A stretch of DNA of 64,000 nt from an uncultured delta proteobacterium (GTDB lineage: Bacteria > Desulfobacterota > RBG-13-43-22), in the NCBI GenBank assembly GCA_963746605.1, contig CAVVCH010000054.1, positions 21,366 to 85,365 of the forward strand, given 5' to 3'. Under the pieces are notes generated by a model. It worked only from the letters and a program-made list of their open reading frames with translations, made no database searches and was not told the DNA's origin. Position numbers and translations under genes: made by a program. Shown here piece by piece: positions 16,053-25,982 of the stretch (position 1 is its first letter; the number at the start of each line of letters is the position of its first letter).

Positions 16053-16337
16053 ATGAGGGCCTTTAAACGCGTTCCGAAGTGAAGAGCTGCTACCCGAGGA
16101 ATTATTGGGTTTATTCAGAACAATGGCTGGTTTTACTCATTGGCCCGCCGGAAGCTGAGACAACTTGAGATTGCCGGTAGGATAGATGATCTGAGAGTGC
16201 CGCCCGGAAATCGTCTTGAAACACTCAAAGGTGATCGTTACGGCCAGTACAGTATTCGTATCAACGATCAATGGCGTGTCTGTTTTAATTGGAATGAAGA
16301 AGTTGCAGAAAATGTTGAAATCGTGGATTACCATTAA
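16053..16337 (+). pseudogene. higB: HigB-family toxin, degraded (N-terminal part out of frame)
   Basis: C-terminal 65 codons read RKLRQLEIAGRIDDLRVPPGNRLETLKGDRYGQYSIRINDQWRVCFNWNEEVAENVEIVDYH, a typical HigB C-terminus; the only ATG (16053) gives MRAFKRVPK then a stop. Confidence 0.55.
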
Positions 16338-16349
16338 GGAGACCCAATC

Positions 16350-16602
16350 ATGAATAAACTCAAACCCATTACTCCCGGTGAAATCCTGCTGGAAGAATTT
16401 CTTAAACCGATGGGGTGAACCAGTTCGCTTAGCCAAAGACATAGGAGTCCCACCCCAGCGCATCAGCGATATTGTTGCCGGTAAGCGAGCCATACGGCGG
16501 ACACCGATGGCACTACGGCTGTCCAGATCCTCTGGTCTGACGAACGGCTACTTGGCTGCGCGCTCAGGCTGCCCATGCATCACTGAAATCGCGGAGCGTT
16601 GA
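16350..16602 (+). pseudogene. higA: HigA-family HTH antitoxin, frameshifted
   Basis: MNKLKPITPGEILLEEFLKPMG then a frame change; second frame ...LAKDIGVPPQRISDIVAGKRAI... is the Xre-type HTH. Confidence 0.55.
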
Positions 16603-16609
16603 ACTGATC

Positions 16610-17500
16610 GGTTCTGGCAAAAATCAGCCCCTCCCCACACCACCTAGCATGCGGGTCCGCACTAGGCGGTTCCCAGAGGCTACCGAGCCGTAGCCGGGTA
16701 ATGGATGTTTACCCACTGATCTTTGACAGACAGCAAACCTTGATCCTTGAGTCACGCCAAGGCGTGATCATGCCTGTCTGGGTGGCCAGCGTGCGTGAGA
16801 GTCGCCAGGGGCCTTTCCGGCTCATCCCGACCGAGATAGCGGTCCGCAGGTGTTCATTGGGATTGGGCTTATCGGCAACGCGCCGGCCACTCGCTCCCCC
16901 GGACGGGTTTATGGCGATGGTCGAGCTTACCGGGCCTTTTCCCTGCTCTGGGTTCGGTCCTTCGTTCGTTGATGGCGAACTACTATGACCTCGGCTGACT
17001 CCTGCCCGGTCAATCGACATGTTTCCAGGCCGGATGCTGTCCAATGTTAACTGGACCGCCTGCCGAACAGGTCTCCCCGGACTCAGTTCAGTACTCCCTC
17101 AGGGGTTAAGACGTGATCTGTCGTTACACAACCGCGGCATTTACCGCGTCTCCTAAACCCGGGGCTTTGTCATGTCGTGCTGACTTACCCGGAGACTTGG
17201 CCTTGTATGCCATTTCTGTACCCCGGATCAGGTCCGGGGCAGGCTTGGCTCATAGCTTTGCGCTCCAGCTTCCTTCGGACGATCCCTCGCGAGCATCGCC
17301 CTTGCTTTCGGCTAGTATTTATGTTCCTGTCTTACGACAGTACGGGTTTACATCAGGGGACTTTCACCCCATAAGATCACGCCCATGCCGGGCGTACACT
17401 AGAATCGTTCGCACCGGATCGGCACCGCTACCCCGGGACAAAACGCGGACATGAAGCTGGTCTCGTGACAAAATGGTCGAGGCTACCGATGGAAAGGATT
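16610..17500. other. ORF-free GC-rich segment of about 0.9 kb; candidate structured RNA or decayed element
   Basis: Six-frame ORFs here give only Pro/Arg/Ser/Gly-rich non-protein-like translations; many local hairpins, e.g. CCCCGGA-ucagg-UCCGGGG at 17221-17239. Confidence 0.2.
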
Positions 17501-18363
17501 ATGGAGGAATACGGACAAGAGGAACCGTGGATGTATAATTCAAAACAAAGTCCTTCGTAATGGTGCAACAAAGATCGATGAAGCAGTTGTATCCTGCTAA
17601 AGAACTTGCCTCCATTAGCTGTAGGTCGCAGGGAATGTTTTCCGGCATGCGGGACGTCATTATGTTTGATCGAAGCAGGTGTCTTGGCGCATATCTGTTT
17701 TTTGATATGCCAGGCGAGGCGAGCTACCTAACGGCAGGACATCTTGCGCAGGTCTTAGGAGGGAAGGCAAGTTTTAAGCGTGAATTGTCGCGCATTTGAT
17801 CAGAAATCCAATGCAAGTCAATCCTCTGGACCTCTATGGGGTCTTTCGTTTCTTTGCGATCCAAGAATTCTTGATGAACTGCTCTGGCATTTCCATAAGA
17901 AAGGAGGTTGGCCATTTCTTTCAGGCCCAGAGATTCGCCCTTTCGGCTCCGGTGGCCAGTTTCTGGATGTCCACGATTTCATGAACGCATGGGCAACGTT
18001 GGGAATCGGCGAACTCACTTTTGCCTTGGGCCAAACGATTGACTCAACTGCGGACATTCTTGCGGTCAATGCAATGCGTGCGGCGGGAATGAGCAACGTA
18101 CTGAATTTGGAGGCGGGCGAATTTTCAGAAGGCCTCTATCATTCTGAAATGGCAATACTTGTCATGCATATCGATCTGGGTACGGATTAGAAAACTCAGG
18201 CCAAGGTGAAGCCGCGAGAGGCTATAAAAGCAAGAAAATGCCCGAACAACCGCGTCAACACCGACCGGCGCCACACGGGTTTCCCAGAGCTCGTTCGCCG
18301 AGCAAAAATGGGGTCAAATCTTTATTATTGACATCTTCTGTTCTAATTTGATACAGGGATTCC

Positions 18364-18906
18364 ATGAGCCGACCTTTGCGCATCCGATATCCCGGGGCGG
18401 TATATCACGTCACCTGTCGGGGCAATGACCGTCAGGACATCTTCCGGGACGATACGGACCGGACGGAGTTCCTGGAAATCCTGGCGGGGTCCCAAACCAT
18501 CTATAACGTGAAGATGTACGCCGCGGTTTTGATGGGGAACCATTTTCATTTGCTGCTGGAGACCCCTCTGGGCAATCTGAACGAATTCATGCGGCGGTTT
18601 AACATCACGTATACCGGCTATTTCAACCGCCGGCACCGGCGGGTGGGCCACTTGTACCAGGGCCGATATAAAAGCATTCTGGTAGAAAAAGAGAGCTATC
18701 TGTCCGAGCTGTCCCGTTATATCCACTTGAACCCGGTCCGGACCCGAGAGCTGGAATCGGAGAACGCCAAAGTCCGGTGGCACTATCTGCTGGACTATCC
18801 CTGGAGCACCTTCCCGGGATATTTGAATGCCAAAGACCGATGGCCGGGGGTGGATTACGGGTTGGTCTTAGGTGAATTCGGCGTGGACAACCCGAATAAA
18901 AGATAA
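18364..18906 (+). CDS. Y1 HuH transposase-like protein (IS200-like fold), truncated paralog
   Basis: 180 aa nearly identical to the first 170 aa of ORF 20843..21823 (HVTCRGN, HFHLLL, YQGRYKS); diverges after ...EFG and ends early. Confidence 0.7.
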   Translation: MSRPLRIRYPGAVYHVTCRGNDRQDIFRDDTDRTEFLEILAGSQTIYNVKMYAAVLMGNHFHLLLETPLGNLNEFMRRFNITYTGYFNRRHRRVGHLYQGRYKSILVEKESYLSELSRYIHLNPVRTRELESENAKVRWHYLLDYPWSTFPGYLNAKDRWPGVDYGLVLGEFGVDNPNKR

Positions 18907-19262
18907 AGTAATGGAACACGTGTTCTCCGGACGTCTTAGTCACGCGGGCATCGATACAGCGAAGCGAAAATCGTCGGCGGTCAATGTTCATGGTACCGGG
19001 TCGGGGAATACCCAACAGGATGCCGGGATACACCATCTAATGCAACGTGCTTCGATCGATGATGTCATTTCGACATGAAGCCTTGACTTGGGGTATGGGA
19101 TCCCAACGGGGCAGGCCCGGTTTGGCTAACAGCATAGAAGCCGATCGAGTGGGCGGAGTTAGATCTGCCAGACGGGGGACCGGGTTTGCCGCCTTGGCTG
19201 GATATTGGCGTTAGCCCGGAGACAAGATTGACAAAAGGCACACATTGTCGTAATCATATTAT

Positions 19263-19541
19263 ATGAATGTCTTTCGATGGGATAATGAAAAAAACGAGAT
19301 GCTCAGGAAGAACAGAGGTGTTTGTTTTGAACAGGTTGTCATACTGATGGAAAGAGGAGATGTTCTCGATACAATAGAACATCCAAACCAGGATAGATAT
19401 CCAGGACAAAAGATCGCCATAGTCAGGATTGATGACTACGCATATCTCGTTCCTTATGTTGAAAAAAGTGAGGAGCTGTTTCTCAAAACCATTATCCCCA
19501 GTAGAAAGGCTACAAACAAGTATGTGAGGACAAAGAAATGA
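19263..19541 (+). CDS. brnT: BrnT-family toxin
   Basis: 92 aa; FRWDNEKNEMLRKNRGVCFEQVV fits the BrnT N-terminal pattern; TTGACA box at 19228-19233. Confidence 0.7.
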   Translation: MNVFRWDNEKNEMLRKNRGVCFEQVVILMERGDVLDTIEHPNQDRYPGQKIAIVRIDDYAYLVPYVEKSEELFLKTIIPSRKATNKYVRTKK

Positions 19542-19831
19542 AAAAGATAGTTTTGGATGCCGAGGAAAAGGATATCCTTGAATCATATGAGCGTGGAGAA
19601 TGGGTGCCGGTCAAGAATCCGAAGAAGGAAATAGCGAAGCTTCGGAGGTACGCAAGGAATACGCTGCAAAAAGACAAGAGAATCAACATTCGAATGTCGT
19701 CGAAGGACTTAGACCAGGTGCAGGTCATCGCCGCACAAGAAGGCATCCCTTATCAGACTCTGGTATCCAGTATCATTCATAAGTATGTTTCCGGATATCT
19801 TATCGAGAAAGAAAGAAGGCTTAACGATTAG
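19538..19831 (+). CDS. brnA: BrnA-family antitoxin
   Basis: 97 aa; KRINIRMSSKDLDQVQVIAAQEGIPYQTLVSSIIHKYV is the BrnA C-terminal motif; 4-bp ATGA overlap with brnT. Confidence 0.7.
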   Translation: MKKIVLDAEEKDILESYERGEWVPVKNPKKEIAKLRRYARNTLQKDKRINIRMSSKDLDQVQVIAAQEGIPYQTLVSSIIHKYVSGYLIEKERRLND

Positions 19832-19895
19832 CTGCACCGGACGAGGCAAAACTAGCACGCCGGTGAGCACCATGTTAGCCTCAGGAGGATAGAGG

Positions 19896-20354
19896 ATGGA
19901 AGAGAAGAATAAAATAACCGAGGCGCTTCGTTTGATATTCGAAGGAATAGACCGCCTGAAGAGGGCATTCCCGAAGAAGGAGTTCACGATTGATGGACGT
20001 CTCGTCGGGGACATAGGCGAGATTATCGCTGCACTTGAATATGATGTTGAACTCTTTGATGTCCTGTGCGAAGGGTATCACGGCAAGACGTCGGATGGTC
20101 GTCTGGTACAAGTTAGGGCGACATTTAAAGACTCTCTTACGTTCCCCTCTGTCCCTGACTATTATTTAGGTCTTAAGCTACACCGAGACGGGACCCACGA
20201 AGAAATCTACAACGGTCCCGGAAAACTGATTTACGAGAAATACAAGCATAGAAGTGGCATAGGAAAGAAATTGCTATCGTTCCCTAATATTGATCTACGA
20301 GAGCTATCTGCCAGGGTACTAAGAAATGATCGTATTCCAAAGCGCAAGGGCTAA
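19896..20354 (+). CDS. Hypothetical protein (152 aa) in the cargo segment
   Basis: Uninterrupted ORF with no family recognised by eye; appears AT-richer than flanking chromosome. Confidence 0.5.
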   Translation: MEEKNKITEALRLIFEGIDRLKRAFPKKEFTIDGRLVGDIGEIIAALEYDVELFDVLCEGYHGKTSDGRLVQVRATFKDSLTFPSVPDYYLGLKLHRDGTHEEIYNGPGKLIYEKYKHRSGIGKKLLSFPNIDLRELSARVLRNDRIPKRKG

Positions 20355-20367
20355 CAAGTGCGTCCAC

Positions 20368-20449
20368 CCGATCGCCGAAAAAACCGGCTCCGGGTGATGT
20401 CATCGTTGATCGTCAAGGTGGAACCGGTCGCGGTGGACGCCTCCTTCGT
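20368..20449. repeat. Cassette-associated repeat, copy A (part 1 and part 2)
   Basis: Part 1 CGATCGCCGAAAAAACCGGCTCCGGGTGATG recurs at 23429-23459; part 2 GTTGATCGTCAAGGTGGAACCGGTCGCGGTGGACGCCTCCTTCGTA recurs at 25938-25982. Confidence 0.5.
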
Positions 20450-20594
20450 AAATGGGTAGATGAGGAGTCATGACGTTCTTTGGATGCTTGTGCAGGTCAG
20501 AGACCGGATCAGCTCCAGCGAAACCTTTCCCTGCTGTCCTTTCCGGTGCCCCTCATGGGATTAGTCAGGGACAAATACCGGGCGAGGTTGTTGC

Positions 20595-20810
20595 ATGAAT
20601 TCTACCGTATCTACTTTTCCAGAACGCGTGGCCTGGATCCTGTTGGGATTGGGCCTCCTCTTCGCCCTCCTTTTCCACCTGGTGCCAGGACTACTGGCGG
20701 GCCTTCTGGTTTACAGTCTCATACATCGCCTGGACCTGCAACTTCACCGCAGGCGCTGGACCAGCAAGAAAAATGCGCGCCTGGCGGCCCTGGGGTCATC
20801 TTATTGTTGA
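20595..20810 (+). pseudogene. Possible N-terminal fragment of a membrane protein (AI-2E/PerM-like) cut at the edge of the duplicated Y1 segment
   Basis: VAWILLGLGLLFALLFHLVPGLLAGLLVYSLIHRLDLQLHRRRW resembles AI-2E transporter N-termini; ORF ends where the duplicated sequence begins (20806). Confidence 0.25.
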
Positions 20811-20842
20811 CATCTTCTGTTCCAATTTGATACAGGGATTCC

Positions 20843-21823
20843 ATGAGCCGACCTTTGCGCATCCGATATCCCGGGGCGGTATATCACGTCACCTGTCGGG
20901 GCAATGACCGTCAGGACATCTTCCGGGACAATACGGACCGGACGGAGTTCCTGGAAATCCTGGCGGGGTCCCAAACCATCTATAACGTGAAGATGTATGC
21001 CGGGGTTTTGATGGGGAACCATTTTCATTTGCTGCTGGAGACCCCTCTGGGCAATCTGAACGAATTCATGCGGCGGTTTAACATCACTTATACCGGCTAT
21101 TTCAACCGCCGGCACCGGCGGGTGGGCCACTTGTACCAAGGCCGATATAAAAGCATTCTGGTAGAAAAAGAGAGCTATCTGTCCGAGCTGTCCCGTTATA
21201 TCCACTTGAACCCGGTCCGGACCCGAGAGCTGGAATCGGAGGACGCCAAAGTCCGGTGGCACTATCTGCTGGACTATCCCTGGAGCACCCTACCGGGATA
21301 TTTGAATGTCAAAGACCGATGGCCGGGAGTGGATTACGGGTTGGTTTTAGGTGAATTCGGCGGGGACAACCCGAAGGGACGGCGTGGTTATGGAAAACGG
21401 ATCCGAGAGGACCTCGTCGGGGGCATCGAACTGAAAGGAAAAATAGTCGGCGGGTGTGTTCTGGGCCGGGCGGGTTATATCCAATGGGTCCGGGAAAAAC
21501 ACATTAAGGAACTGCCGGTCGGGGATTACACCGGATATAAAGCCTTGAAACGCTATCGATCCAAGGAGCAGGTCCTGGATTTGCTGGCAGTAGAAACCGG
21601 CCTGAGTTTGGAAGAGGTTAAATCTTCCAAGGGGGACCGGCGCCGGTTGGCCATGGAATTGCTGTACCGGGTGGGCGGATTGACCGGAGACGAGATCGGA
21701 AGCCTTTTCGGGATAGGCGCCAGCGCAGTCAGTCAGGAAAGGAAAAGGCTGGTGTCCCGAATGGCGGAAGATGAGGCCGTGAAAAAGCTGTTTGAGGAAC
21801 TGTTTTCGAAATGTTCGGTATAG
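20843..21823 (+). CDS. Y1 HuH transposase-like protein with C-terminal DnaA-like HTH domain, full-length paralog
   Basis: 326 aa; HuH motif HFHLLL, tyrosine region YQGRYKS, C-terminal ...GLTGDEIGSLFGIGASAVSQERKRL. Confidence 0.75.
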   Translation: MSRPLRIRYPGAVYHVTCRGNDRQDIFRDNTDRTEFLEILAGSQTIYNVKMYAGVLMGNHFHLLLETPLGNLNEFMRRFNITYTGYFNRRHRRVGHLYQGRYKSILVEKESYLSELSRYIHLNPVRTRELESEDAKVRWHYLLDYPWSTLPGYLNVKDRWPGVDYGLVLGEFGGDNPKGRRGYGKRIREDLVGGIELKGKIVGGCVLGRAGYIQWVREKHIKELPVGDYTGYKALKRYRSKEQVLDLLAVETGLSLEEVKSSKGDRRRLAMELLYRVGGLTGDEIGSLFGIGASAVSQERKRLVSRMAEDEAVKKLFEELFSKCSV

Positions 21824-23015: not shown

Positions 23016-23342
23016 ATGAGAATCGGCTTTGATCCCGCCAAGGGAAAACGATTACCATTGACTGACGAAGACGGCGAGGTCCCCGAACTCACCGCCGATG
23101 ACTTCAAGCACTTCAAACCCGCTTCCGAGGTGCTGCCCCCAGGGCTGTTGGCGGTGCTCCCCAGGCGCGGCCGGCCTACGGTGAAATCTCCAAAGAAGGC
23201 GGTGAACATTCGTCCGGCACCTGACATACTCTCTGCTTTCAAGTCCACGGGTAAAGGCTATACGCATCGGCTATACTCACTCCACTTTGGGTTCAGGTTA
23301 TACGCTAGAGTCGGAACTTATGAAGGGCCTGAAGGGTGTTAG
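23016..23342 (+). CDS. BrnA-like (DUF4415-type) small protein, C-terminus possibly frameshifted
   Basis: ...PELTADDFKHFKPASEVLPP...KKAVNIRPAPDILSAFKSTGKGY fits the BrnA/DUF4415 pattern; no adjacent BrnT. Confidence 0.4.
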   Translation: MRIGFDPAKGKRLPLTDEDGEVPELTADDFKHFKPASEVLPPGLLAVLPRRGRPTVKSPKKAVNIRPAPDILSAFKSTGKGYTHRLYSLHFGFRLYARVGTYEGPEGC

Positions 23343-23428
23343 CGTAGGATGTCACGAGATTTGCAATAGTTGCCAAGATCTGCCTCGTTAGACTTGGAAA
23401 GAAATCCATAGGCCGATGCCATGCAGCG

Positions 23429-23459
23429 GATCGCCAATAAAGCCGGCTCCCGCTGATGG
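23429..23459. repeat. Cassette-associated repeat, copy B (part 1 only)
   Basis: GATCGCCAATAAAGCCGGCTCCCGCTGATGG, about 80% identical to 20368-20398. Confidence 0.45.
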
Positions 23460-25690: not shown

Positions 25691-25895
25691 ATGAAGAACT
25701 CAAAGGCGCTTGGGAACAACGTCTCGGTTGAGGTTACGCATATCTCCAAAACAGGAGTCTGGCTGCTTGCCCGAGAAAGAACCGTATGTCGACCATTTCT
25801 ATTGGCCTGATCTTGACGTAGACCTGACTTCCGAGATCATTGACTATCCCGAAAGATTTCCCTTGAAAGTAAAAGAGTGCTCAATAAGACGATGA
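25691..25895 (+). pseudogene. DUF2442-like small protein, frameshifted
   Basis: Frame 1 MKNSKALGNNVSVEVTHISKTGVWLLAR, frame 2 ...PYVDHFYWPDLDVDLTSEIIDYPERF; the motif W-P-x-LD resembles DUF2442. Confidence 0.3.
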
Positions 25896-25937
25896 ACCCG
25901 ATCATGTCCCTGGCGGGCCACTCCGGGTTAGCTCGGT

Positions 25938-25982
25938 GTTGATCGTCAAGGTGGAACCGGTCGCGTGGACGCATCCTTCGTA
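25938..25982. repeat. Cassette-associated repeat, copy C (part 2 only)
   Basis: GTTGATCGTCAAGGTGGAACCGGTCGCGTGGACGCATCCTTCGTA, near-identical to 20404-20449. Confidence 0.5.

What the first reader, a model, noticed from the sequence alone, without database searches (positions are those of the whole stretch)
19896..20354. Uncharacterised 152-aa ORF riding as cargo next to brnTA
A clean 152-codon ORF with no family I can recognise (MEEKNKITEALRLIFEGIDRLKRAFPKKEFTIDGRLVGDIGEIIAALEYDVELFDV...) sits directly after the BrnT/BrnA module inside the Y1-bracketed segment and is followed by a repeat shared with two other small-gene loci. Position and context are typical of defence or addiction cargo.
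Basis: inference. Interest (0 to 1): 0.45.

Follow-up and report, generated by a model that had tools for sequence, protein, structure and literature searches.

The report
Integron cassette encoding BisI-like nuclease relative
The 152-codon gene is real, but it is not an orphan riding on a transposon: it is a self-contained integron gene cassette, and it encodes a member of the uncharacterised DUF6998 family, which has the fold of small restriction enzymes that cut methylated DNA, here with two of its four catalytic residues replaced.

Summary
The ORF 19896-20354 (+) is confirmed and is a real gene. It has more than 1,200 homologues, and dN/dS among its closest relatives is about 0.1-0.3.

"No recognisable family" is wrong. 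It is a full-length member of Pfam DUF6998 (E 2e-39).

The family conserves the BisI-type catalytic set E42-D62-Q72-x-K74 in about 95% of members. The window copy and a small clade carry H62 and R74 instead, and both are invariant under purifying selection.

The vehicle is an integron cassette, not the Y1 genes. Homology to 14 related loci is confined to 19874-20408. It starts at G|TTAGCC and ends at an attC site (20349-20411) whose R'' box contains the stop codon.

brnTA is a separate neighbouring cassette, and no relative keeps that adjacency. No integrase was found in the window, so this looks like a CALIN-type attC cluster.

No partner gene is conserved. Supporting hints for defence are TIR-DUF6998 fusions and a few defence-gene neighbours.

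The most likely role is a solitary DNA-targeting defence protein, probably directed at modified DNA. Whether this copy still cuts DNA is uncertain.

The parts
19875..20405 (+). DUF6998 integron gene cassette (531 bp), from the TT of G|TTAGCC to the G of the next G|TT
   Evidence: blastn homology to 14 related loci is confined to about 19874-20408. In every locus the flanks diverge immediately 5' of GTTAGCC and immediately 3' of the attC GTT.
19883..19889 (+). Shine-Dalgarno AGGAGGA, 6 nt before the ATG, inside the cassette
   Evidence: Read from the sequence. It is conserved in the cassette copies of other loci.
19896..20354 (+). 152-aa ORF. It is a DUF6998 (PF22522) protein with a PvuII/BisI-like PD-(D/E)xK fold. 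The active-site positions are E42, H62, Q72, R74; the family consensus is E, D, Q, K.
20349..20411 (+). attC site of the DUF6998 cassette. R'' is GGCTAAC (20349-20355) and contains the TAA stop. The L box carries a bulged base. R' is GTTGATC (20405-20411).
   Evidence: Covariance model hit of 70.5 bits. The consensus structure has 8 covarying pairs. Single-sequence fold -21.4 kcal/mol.
19211..19874 (+). Neighbouring, independent brnT/brnA-like cassette. brnT-like is 19263-19541 and brnA/CopG-like is 19538-19831. It carries a promoter-like TTGACA-18-AATCAT at 19228-19257.
   Evidence: Pfam. Boundaries are GTTAGCC at 19210-19216 and 19874-19880. Promoter scan. The adjacency to DUF6998 is not conserved.
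19819..19880 (+). attC site of the brnTA cassette. R'' is GCTTAAC and R' is GTTAGCC. Its G|TT is the 5' boundary of the DUF6998 cassette.
   Evidence: Covariance model hit of 52.6 bits, E 4e-10. Fold -22.5 kcal/mol.
19124..19216 (+). Probable long (93-nt) attC preceding the brnTA cassette. GGCTAAC and GTTAGCC are perfectly complementary.
   Evidence: Hairpin of -38.9 kcal/mol closed by the R boxes. It scores only weakly with the short-attC model (E 6.9), so it is rated probable, not shown.
18309..18896 (+). Context only: truncated duplicate of the 5' part of the Y1 gene (ORF 18364-18906, 180 aa)
20791..21823 (+). Context only: full-length Y1_Tnp/RAYT-like gene with a C-terminal HTH (ORF 20843-21823, 326 aa). 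Its first 585 bp repeat 18309-18896.
23420..23458 (+). attC remnant (L box and loop only) after an orphan BrnA-like ORF at 23016-23342
   Evidence: Covariance model hit of 39.3 bits, E 5e-7. Pfam BrnA_antitoxin E 4e-13.
25879..25944 (+). Weak attC-like site after a 61-aa ORF (25710-25895). It is followed by the same 45 nt that follow the DUF6998 attC.
   Evidence: Covariance model hit of 19.3 bits, E 0.027. Repeat evidence.

Best explanation
The ORF is the single gene of a 531-bp integron gene cassette (19875-20405). An integron integrase acting in trans can excise and re-insert the cassette through its own attC hairpin (20349-20411). In this window it sits in a short attC cluster without an integrase (a CALIN) next to an unrelated brnTA cassette. 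It is probably transcribed by read-through from the brnTA promoter.

The protein belongs to DUF6998. This large, patchily distributed family has no partner gene and is a remote sister of the BisI family of modification-dependent restriction endonucleases. It has the PvuII-like homodimer-type PD-(D/E)xK fold and a GDxxE...D...QxK active site.

The most likely job of the family is single-gene defence. A dimer would recognise a short site in foreign DNA, probably modified DNA, and cut within it. The lack of any methyltransferase partner makes cutting of unmodified self DNA unlikely.

The window copy belongs to a derived clade in which the metal-binding Asp is His (H62) and the catalytic Lys is Arg (R74). 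It is still a selected, functional protein. Its chemistry is either shifted (different metal, slower cleavage) or reduced to DNA binding only.

Shown: the ORF, family membership, the fold, the conserved motif and its substitution, purifying selection, the cassette boundaries, the attC structure, and the absence of a conserved partner. Inferred: the dimer, the DNA target, modification dependence, the defence role, and the transcription route.
For: Family and fold:
- Pfam DUF6998 at 135 bits over the full length.
- AlphaFold2 model with pLDDT 90.8.
- Foldseek ranks NhoI and Eco15I first.

Remote homology to the BisI family:
- A profile search against PDB sequences aligns GDxGE...D...QVK with NhoI.
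- hhalign gives 73% probability, E 3e-5.
- NhoI's only Pfam hit is DUF6998: 24.3 bits against a gathering score of 27.
- In Eco15I, alanine substitutions at E49, D69, Q79 or K81 each abolish activity (PMC11347163).

Active-site motif:
- Among 120 close homologues, E42 is present in 120, D62 in 115, Q72 in 120 and K74 in 114.
- Among the aligned members of 150 representatives clustered at 50% identity, the counts are 128/133, 135/139, 133/143 and 135/144.
- H62 plus R74 occurs in the window copy and 14 relatives, and in no sequence outside that clade.
- That clade has dN/dS of 0.07-0.42 at dS up to 0.88, similar to its D/K neighbours.

Cassette:
- Homology breakpoints fall at G|TTAGCC and at the attC GTT in 14 loci.
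- The attC consensus structure has a bulged L box and 8 covarying pairs.
- The covariance model finds dense, same-strand arrays around the relatives, including about 24 sites in 12 kb in Luteimonas.
- In Vibrio and Aliivibrio the gene is followed by a 125-133-nt repeat present 10-14 times per 12 kb.

No partner gene:
- No neighbour cluster occurs in more than 4 of 69 loci; one 6-locus cluster is an antisense shadow ORF overlapping the DUF6998 gene itself.
- No Pfam family occurs in more than 3 of 132 immediate neighbours.

Hints of defence:
- Two TIR_2-DUF6998 fusions keep an intact E-D-QxK.
- Immediate neighbours include GmrSD_N, AAA_5, Methylase_S, nSTAND3 and REase_MTES_1575.

Expression:
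- A promoter-like site precedes brnT only. No terminator-like site lies between brnA and the ORF.
Against: - There are no experimental data for any DUF6998 member, and the name appears in no searchable paper.
- PADLOC and NCBIfam give no hit.
- Similarity to the BisI family is below significance by sequence, and the part of the protein that would read DNA cannot be compared.
- The window copy lacks two residues whose alanine substitutions abolish activity in Eco15I, so nuclease activity may be absent.
- Most genome loci (59 of 67 with the lineage-specific model) show no attC, and many sit among housekeeping genes. Defence-island enrichment is therefore weak.
- tblastn against 50,697 phage genomes found nothing.
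- No integron integrase was found in the window (rough HMM) or in the fragments held from related loci.
- The promoter-like match is not enriched over shuffled sequence.
Confidence: 0.6

Rival explanations
1. The H62/R74 copy is a nuclease-dead derivative. It would keep the dimeric DNA-recognition scaffold and act only by binding. Possible roles are blocking replication or transcription of a foreign DNA, or regulating a gene.
For: Asp62 and Lys74 align with the residues whose alanine substitutions abolish Eco15I activity. Both are replaced, together with four other clade-specific changes: V43I, x59E, K/R84P and x125K. The protein is nevertheless under purifying selection.
Against: His and Arg retain metal-binding and cationic character. 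K74R arose independently in at least 6 other lineages that keep D62, so Arg seems tolerated. E42 and Q72, the remaining metal ligands, are invariant in the clade. No partner effector is encoded next to it.
Confidence: 0.3
2. The ORF is a functional third component, either toxin or effector, of the adjacent brnTA addiction module.
For: It lies 64 nt downstream on the same strand, with no terminator-like site between the two.
Against: An attC recombination site separates the two. None of 14 close relatives has brnTA upstream, and homology ends 22 nt before the ATG. No antitoxin-like family recurs next to 69 genome copies.
Confidence: 0.04
3. The gene is cargo of a Y1 (IS200/IS605- or RAYT-type) element, mobilised between the two Y1 copies.
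For: Two Y1 sequences 97% identical bracket the segment. A Y1 plus DnaA_C-HTH gene also lies 2.4 kb from the cassette in locus L098.
Against: The upstream copy is a truncated duplicate. From established knowledge, Y1 transposases do not form composite transposons. Homology with other loci ends at the attC cores, not at the Y1 copies. IS elements next to attC clusters are common: 38% of CALINs have one (PMC4889954).
Confidence: 0.04
4. It is a free-standing homing-type endonuclease, a selfish gene that spreads by cutting empty alleles.
Against: There is no intron or intein context. Spread is explained by attC/IntI recombination. Insertion sites differ from locus to locus.
Confidence: 0.05
5. 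It is a housekeeping DNA repair or junction-resolving enzyme (Hjc/RecU-like).
Against: The pattern scan found it in only about 80 of 185,579 species genomes. It is cassette-borne. Frameshifted copies occur. Restriction enzymes are the better structural matches.
Confidence: 0.03

Closest known systems
BisI family of modification-dependent restriction endonucleases (NhoI, Eco15I, BisI; PDB 8q5n, 8rpx, 8q5m)
   Different: Sequence similarity is below significance: 15-19% identity, hhalign probability 73%. The C-terminal half cannot be matched by sequence. Specificity is unknown. The window copy has H and R where the BisI enzymes have the essential D and K.
PvuII (Type IIP restriction endonuclease)
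   Different: PvuII uses D58/E68/K70 and has a cognate methyltransferase. DUF6998 has QxK (here QxR) and no conserved methyltransferase neighbour.
Integron gene cassettes in sedentary chromosomal integrons and CALINs
   Same: It is a single promoterless ORF with a short leader. Its attC has R''/L''/L'/R' boxes and a bulged base. The boundaries lie at G|TT. Toxin-antitoxin cassettes are neighbours. Relatives sit in dense same-strand arrays. CALIN is defined as at least two attC sites without a nearby intI (PMC4889954).
   Different: No integrase was found in the 64-kb window. The cluster is short, with 2 strong attC sites, 1 probable and 2 remnants. It is interrupted by Y1 genes and lies among housekeeping genes.
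Phage-defence integron cassettes (reported for mobile integrons, bioRxiv 10.1101/2024.07.02.601719)
   Same: It is a compact single-gene cassette of unknown function with a nuclease fold, found in cassette arrays.
   Different: No phage-resistance test exists for any DUF6998 cassette. The name does not occur in the searchable literature.

Membership tests
Pfam DUF6998 (PF22522) | Score above the curated gathering threshold over the whole domain | tested here: met
   135.1 bits against a gathering score of 27, residues 14-147 on profile positions 3-136 of 136. All 120 listed homologues carry PF22522.
PD-(D/E)xK nuclease superfamily | [quoted passage not shown] | tested here: met
PD-(D/E)xK nuclease superfamily | Catalytic Glu (helix), Asp (strand 2) and (D/E/Q)xK (strand 3) | tested here: not met
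   The family consensus E42-D62-Q72-x-K74 is present in about 95% of members. The window copy has H62 and R74. E42 and Q72 are kept.
BisI family of modification-dependent REases | Significant sequence relationship to BisI, NhoI or Eco15I | tested here: inconclusive
   hmmsearch of the DUF6998 profile against PDB sequences gives NhoI at E 0.48. hhalign gives 73% probability, E 3e-5 over 70 columns. NhoI on the DUF6998 HMM scores 24.3 bits, below the gathering score of 27.
BisI family of modification-dependent REases | PD-QxK (Mrr-like) active site with essential E, D, Q and K | tested here: not met
   This copy has H in place of D and R in place of K. Most other DUF6998 members meet the feature.
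BisI family of modification-dependent REases | Orphan gene without a cognate methyltransferase | tested here: met
   No methyltransferase family recurs among the neighbours of 69 loci. There is none beside the window copy.
BisI family of modification-dependent REases | Homodimer that cleaves within multiply 5mC/5hmC-modified GCNGC | not testable with these tools
   This needs biochemistry. No multimer prediction or DNA docking was available.
Integron gene cassette | attC site with complementary R''(RYYYAAC)/R'(GTTRRRY) cores, an L box with an extrahelical base, and a variable loop | tested here: met
   GGCTAAC...GTT at 20349-20411. The consensus structure of 17 sites has 8 covarying pairs and a bulged column. 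Covariance model score 70.5 bits. The third R of both R' cores deviates from the consensus (GTTAGCC, GTTGATC).
Integron gene cassette | The unit of mobility is ORF plus attC, with junctions at G|TT | tested here: met
   In 14 loci the homology starts at GTTAGCC and ends at the attC GTT, with unrelated flanks on both sides.
Integron gene cassette | Occurrence in arrays of same-strand attC sites | tested here: met
   Arrays are dense in L089-L101, L011 and Luteimonas L005/L006 and in Vibrio/Aliivibrio. The window has three consecutive sites on the + strand.
Complete integron | intI integrase gene adjacent to the array | tested here: not met
   There is no tyrosine-recombinase-like ORF in the window by a rough HMM built from 4 integrases. 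ORFs within 4 kb are a histidine kinase, HigBA, Y1, MTHFR and an oxidoreductase. The sensitivity of the search is limited. The result fits a CALIN (PMC4889954).
Type II toxin-antitoxin module (with brnTA) | Conserved gene adjacency with the toxin/antitoxin pair | tested here: not met
   No relative has brnTA next to it.
IS200/IS605- or RAYT-borne cargo | Cargo co-mobilised with the Y1 gene, with shared element ends | tested here: not met
   Homology with other loci ends at the attC cores, well inside the Y1 bracket. The upstream Y1 copy is truncated.
Known anti-phage defence systems (PADLOC-DB v2) | Match to a catalogued defence protein model | tested here: not met
   No PADLOC hit even at E<=10.

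The most novel reading that the evidence does not exclude
DUF6998 is a large, unrecognised sister family of the BisI modification-dependent restriction enzymes that spreads as integron cassettes. The H62/R74 clade, to which the window gene belongs, is a neofunctionalised form. It would be either a PD-(D/E)xK scaffold working with a His/Arg active site (different metal or chemistry) or a nuclease-dead reader of modified DNA, kept by selection as a stand-alone cassette.

A second strand: the same ORF keeps an identical stop-codon-in-R'' junction while carrying host-specific attC types of 54 to 133 nt, and a recent attC swap has occurred. That would be a natural record of how attC sites are exchanged or homogenised, an open point in cassette genesis.
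Probability: 0.3. Interest if true: 0.6.

Novelty: new variant of a known kind. Interest (0 to 1): 0.45.

Why it matters
It turns an anonymous ORF into a testable candidate. DUF6998 has about 1,350 clusters at 50% identity, spans many phyla, and includes two TIR fusions. It is likely a new family of solitary restriction-type nucleases, related to the only enzymes known to cut inside multiply methylated short sites.

If the family reads modified DNA it could supply new epigenetic tools and add to the emerging picture of integron cassettes as defence-gene banks.

The H62/R74 clade is a natural experiment on whether the canonical Asp/Lys pair of the PD-(D/E)xK site can be replaced.

The finding also corrects the local picture. 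The mobile units here are integron cassettes in an integrase-less attC cluster, not transposon cargo.

Tried and rejected
- NCBIfam and PADLOC scans of the ORF found nothing.
- tblastn against 50,697 phage genomes gave no match, despite the phrog_35225 hit.
- The BFVD fold search returned only weak, unnamed small phage proteins.
- The AFDB fold library was not available.
- A literature search for DUF6998 returned zero papers.
- A search for a conserved partner gene found none. It used all-against-all clustering of 751 neighbour ORFs, then Pfam and PADLOC on 132 immediate neighbours.
- A search for an integron integrase found none, either in the window or in candidate ORFs of related loci. The candidates turned out to be a metallo-beta-lactamase-fold protein, a Y1 gene and a peptide transporter.
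- My generic R''/R' hairpin finder was too unspecific to estimate the cassette-borne fraction. It was positive in 6% of random windows and gave equal counts on both strands. I rely on the covariance model and on repeat families instead.
- Vibrio attC sites are missed by the lineage-specific model and had to be shown as repeat families.
- The site of the attC swap cannot be told apart from homologous exchange in the last 112 nt of the ORF.
- There is no second DUF6998 paralogue in the window that could partner the H/R copy.

Full report
**Observation.** The ORF at 19896-20354 (+) exists exactly as described. It has 152 codons, an ATG start and the quoted translation. An AGGAGGA ribosome-binding site lies 6 nt upstream of the ATG. 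The ORF begins 64 nt after a BrnT-like/CopG-BrnA-like pair at 19263-19541 and 19538-19831. These have weak but consistent Pfam hits. The segment lies between two Y1_Tnp/RAYT-like genes whose first 588 bp form a 97% identical direct repeat, 18309-18896 and 20791-21375. The upstream copy is truncated to 180 aa. The downstream repeat is also real. 20388-20450 matches 25921-25982, and the inner stem recurs at 23420-23458. Each of those sites follows a small ORF.

**Family.** The statement that no family is recognisable is wrong. The protein matches Pfam DUF6998 (PF22522) over its whole length (135 bits against a gathering score of 27) and phrog_35225. It has no hit in NCBIfam or PADLOC. A word-indexed search found 1,273 homologues, nearly all stand-alone proteins of about 152 aa. 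An exhaustive profile search found 1,354 clusters at 50% identity with E<=1e-3 and 674 with E<=1e-10. A pattern scan of one genome per species found about 80 loci. They span Desulfobacterota, Acidobacteriota, several classes of Pseudomonadota, Planctomycetota, Chloroflexota, Verrucomicrobiota, Bacteroidota, Spirochaetota and Firmicutes, at 41-66% identity for the full-length matches. That is a patchy, horizontally spread distribution. The closest genomic relatives are an uncultured deltaproteobacterial MAG (90%) and a Syntrophales MAG (86%).

**Fold and active site.**
- An AlphaFold2 model built on 26 homologues is confident (pLDDT 90.8, pTM 0.84).
- Below them come Hjc resolvases and many Type II restriction enzymes. 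Foldseek ranks NhoI and Eco15I first.
- NhoI and Eco15I are BisI-family enzymes. They are orphan, homodimeric PD-QxK nucleases that cut inside GCNGC carrying several 5-methylcytosines. In Eco15I, alanine substitutions at E49, D69, Q79 and K81 each abolish activity (PMC11347163).
- The relationship is also visible in sequence, just below significance. The DUF6998 profile aligns its GDxGE...D...QVK with NhoI's GDYAE...D...QVK (E 0.48).
- hhalign gives 73% probability, E 3e-5.
- NhoI's only Pfam hit is DUF6998, at 24.3 bits.
- Within DUF6998 the four positions are E42 (120/120 close homologues; 128/133 aligned distant representatives), D62 (115/120; 135/139), Q72 (120/120; 133/143) and K74 (114/120; 135/144).
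- DUF6998 is therefore best described as a sister family of the BisI enzymes within the PvuII-like branch of PD-(D/E)xK nucleases.

**The window copy is a variant.**
- It has H62 and R74. The same pair is found in five protein clusters (P0001, P0002, P0003, P0005, P0036) and in nine further metagenomic or MAG loci, but in no sequence outside this clade.
- The clade has four more diagnostic changes: V43I, x59E, K/R84P and x125K.
- It is not decaying. Pairwise dN/dS within the clade is 0.07-0.42, mostly about 0.15, at dS up to 0.88. That is close to the 0.09-0.19 of neighbouring D/K sequences. H62 and R74 never vary.
- K74R alone has arisen independently in at least six other lineages that keep D62, so Arg is probably tolerated. 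D62H is unique to this clade.
- Whether the protein still cleaves DNA cannot be decided here.

**What moves the gene.**
- blastn of the window against 14 related loci shows homology only between about 19874 and 20408.
- In every locus the upstream sequence diverges immediately before GTTAGCC (19874-19880 in the window).
- In every locus the downstream sequence diverges immediately after a GTT that closes a hairpin beginning with GGCTAAC. That GGCTAAC contains the TAA stop codon.
- These are the R' and R'' cores of an integron attC site.
- Seventeen such sites fold into the canonical structure: a 4-bp R box, unpaired spacers, an L box with one bulged base, and a variable loop. Compensatory changes occur in 8 of 15 pairs.
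- A covariance model built from them scores the DUF6998 site 70.5 bits and the site after brnA 52.6 bits. In the rest of the window it finds a partial site at 23420-23458 (E 5e-7) and a weak one at 25879-25944.
- A 93-nt hairpin closed by perfectly complementary GGCTAAC and GTTAGCC (19124-19216, -38.9 kcal/mol) precedes the brnTA cassette.
- The same model finds dense, strictly same-strand arrays around the relatives. One example is about 24 sites in 12 kb of a complete Luteimonas chromosome, with the DUF6998 gene lying between two of them.
- In Vibrio hepatarius and Aliivibrio finisterrensis the gene is followed by a 125-133-nt repeat present 10-14 times per 12 kb.
- The gene is therefore a 531-bp integron cassette (19875-20405), and brnTA is a separate 664-bp cassette (19211-19874).
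- No tyrosine recombinase was detected in the window (rough HMM). ORFs within 4 kb are a PAS/GAF histidine kinase, HigBA, the Y1 genes, MTHFR and a molybdopterin oxidoreductase. This fits a CALIN, meaning at least two attC sites without a nearby intI. Such clusters are often next to insertion sequences (PMC4889954). The two isolated remnants fit reports that integrases can insert cassettes outside att sites (bioRxiv 10.1101/2022.09.11.507474).
- The Y1 bracket is therefore incidental to the gene's mobility.

**Context and function.**
- No partner gene is conserved. Among 751 ORFs within 4 kb of 69 genome copies, no genuine neighbour cluster occurs in more than 4 loci. The single 6-locus cluster is an antisense shadow ORF overlapping the DUF6998 gene itself.
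- Among 132 immediate neighbours, no Pfam family occurs more than three times.
- There is no recurrent methyltransferase, antitoxin or immunity gene. A solitary, conserved nuclease without a protecting methyltransferase is most simply explained by a target absent from the host, as with the modification-dependent BisI enzymes.
- Several observations hint at defence, though none is decisive. Two independent TIR_2-DUF6998 fusion proteins keep E-D-QxK. Some neighbours carry GmrSD_N, AAA_5, Type I specificity subunit, nSTAND3 or REase_MTES_1575 domains. The gene also occurs on plasmids, including a conjugative Vibrio harveyi plasmid.
- Against a strong defence-island signal, many copies sit among ordinary metabolic genes. 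Only 8 of 67 non-close genome loci gave attC hits with the lineage-specific model, which is a lower bound. Some copies are frameshifted.

**Expression.** A promoter-like TTGACA-18-AATCAT lies just upstream of brnT, inside the brnTA cassette. There is no promoter-like or terminator-like site between brnA and the DUF6998 ORF. Read-through from the toxin-antitoxin promoter is the likely source of transcripts. This is an inference, and the scan is not enriched over shuffles.

**Verdict.**
It is wrong on three points: there is a known family, there is no functional link to brnTA, and Y1 is not the vehicle.
- The best explanation is a cassette-borne, BisI/PvuII-like DNA-targeting protein with a remodelled active site.
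- My sub-confidences are about 0.9 for the integron cassette, about 0.85 for the PD-(D/E)xK fold and BisI relationship, about 0.45 for a defence role against modified DNA, and roughly even odds that this particular copy still cleaves DNA.
- It is a new variant of a known kind. It is of moderate interest as an entry point to an uncharacterised restriction-like family and to a naturally substituted PD-(D/E)xK active site.

Noticed in passing
window 16957-17036 and 17110-17296, minus strand: Two Rfam group II intron domain hits (RF01998 at 62.7 bits, RF02001 at 93.2 bits) with no reverse-transcriptase-sized ORF nearby. Their orientation is opposite to the + strand cassettes, which recalls group IIC-attC introns. 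The intron class and its insertion site were not determined.
   Followed up: partly
window 18309-18896 and 20791-21375; locus L098 851-1870: A 588-bp, 97% identical direct duplication of the 5' part of a Y1_Tnp/RAYT-like gene brackets the three attC sites. A similar Y1 plus DnaA_C-HTH gene lies 2.4 kb from the DUF6998 cassette in an unrelated metagenome contig. HUH/Y1 enzymes act on single-stranded DNA hairpins, so attC arrays might attract them. This is speculation.
   Followed up: partly
window 23016-23458 and 25710-25982: An orphan BrnA-like ORF (Pfam E 4e-13) is followed by an attC remnant lacking R boxes. A 61-aa ORF is followed by a weak attC. The two flank a 732-aa molybdopterin oxidoreductase gene. 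The 45 nt that follow the DUF6998 attC (20406-20450) recur after 25944.
   Followed up: partly
loci L091/L010 versus L101/L089 (3' end of the DUF6998 cassette): ORFs differing at only 10-13 of 456 nt carry unrelated attC sites (89 nt versus 63 nt). Homology ends right after GGCTAAC, and the last ORF difference is at nt 344. This is a recent attC replacement. The mechanism is unresolved: exchange at R'', or homologous exchange within the ORF end.
   Followed up: partly
loci L006 (Luteimonas), L055, L060 (Vibrio), L061 (Aliivibrio), and the window: The DUF6998 stop codon TAA lies inside the R'' core (NNNTAAC) at the same offset in cassettes whose attC sites are of different, host-typical kinds (54, 60, 63 and 125-133 nt). 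The ORF-attC junction appears older than the attC bodies.
   Followed up: partly
proteins P0140 (306 aa) and P0144 (313 aa); also P0149 and P0249: These are domain fusions: TIR_2-DUF6998 twice, with an intact E-D-QxK, plus HicB-like-DUF6998 and DUF6508-DUF6998. The gene models were not checked on DNA.
   Followed up: partly
window 16140-16337 and 16378-16602: A HigB-like toxin (Pfam E 1e-17) matches only profile positions 30-91, so it may be N-terminally truncated. An HTH_3 antitoxin-like ORF sits next to it, just upstream of the intron fragment. It is one more toxin-antitoxin remnant in this patch.
   Followed up: no
loci L080, L081, L087, L088: tblastn hits are split across reading frames. 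These are frameshifted DUF6998 copies, showing that the gene is dispensable in some hosts.
   Followed up: no
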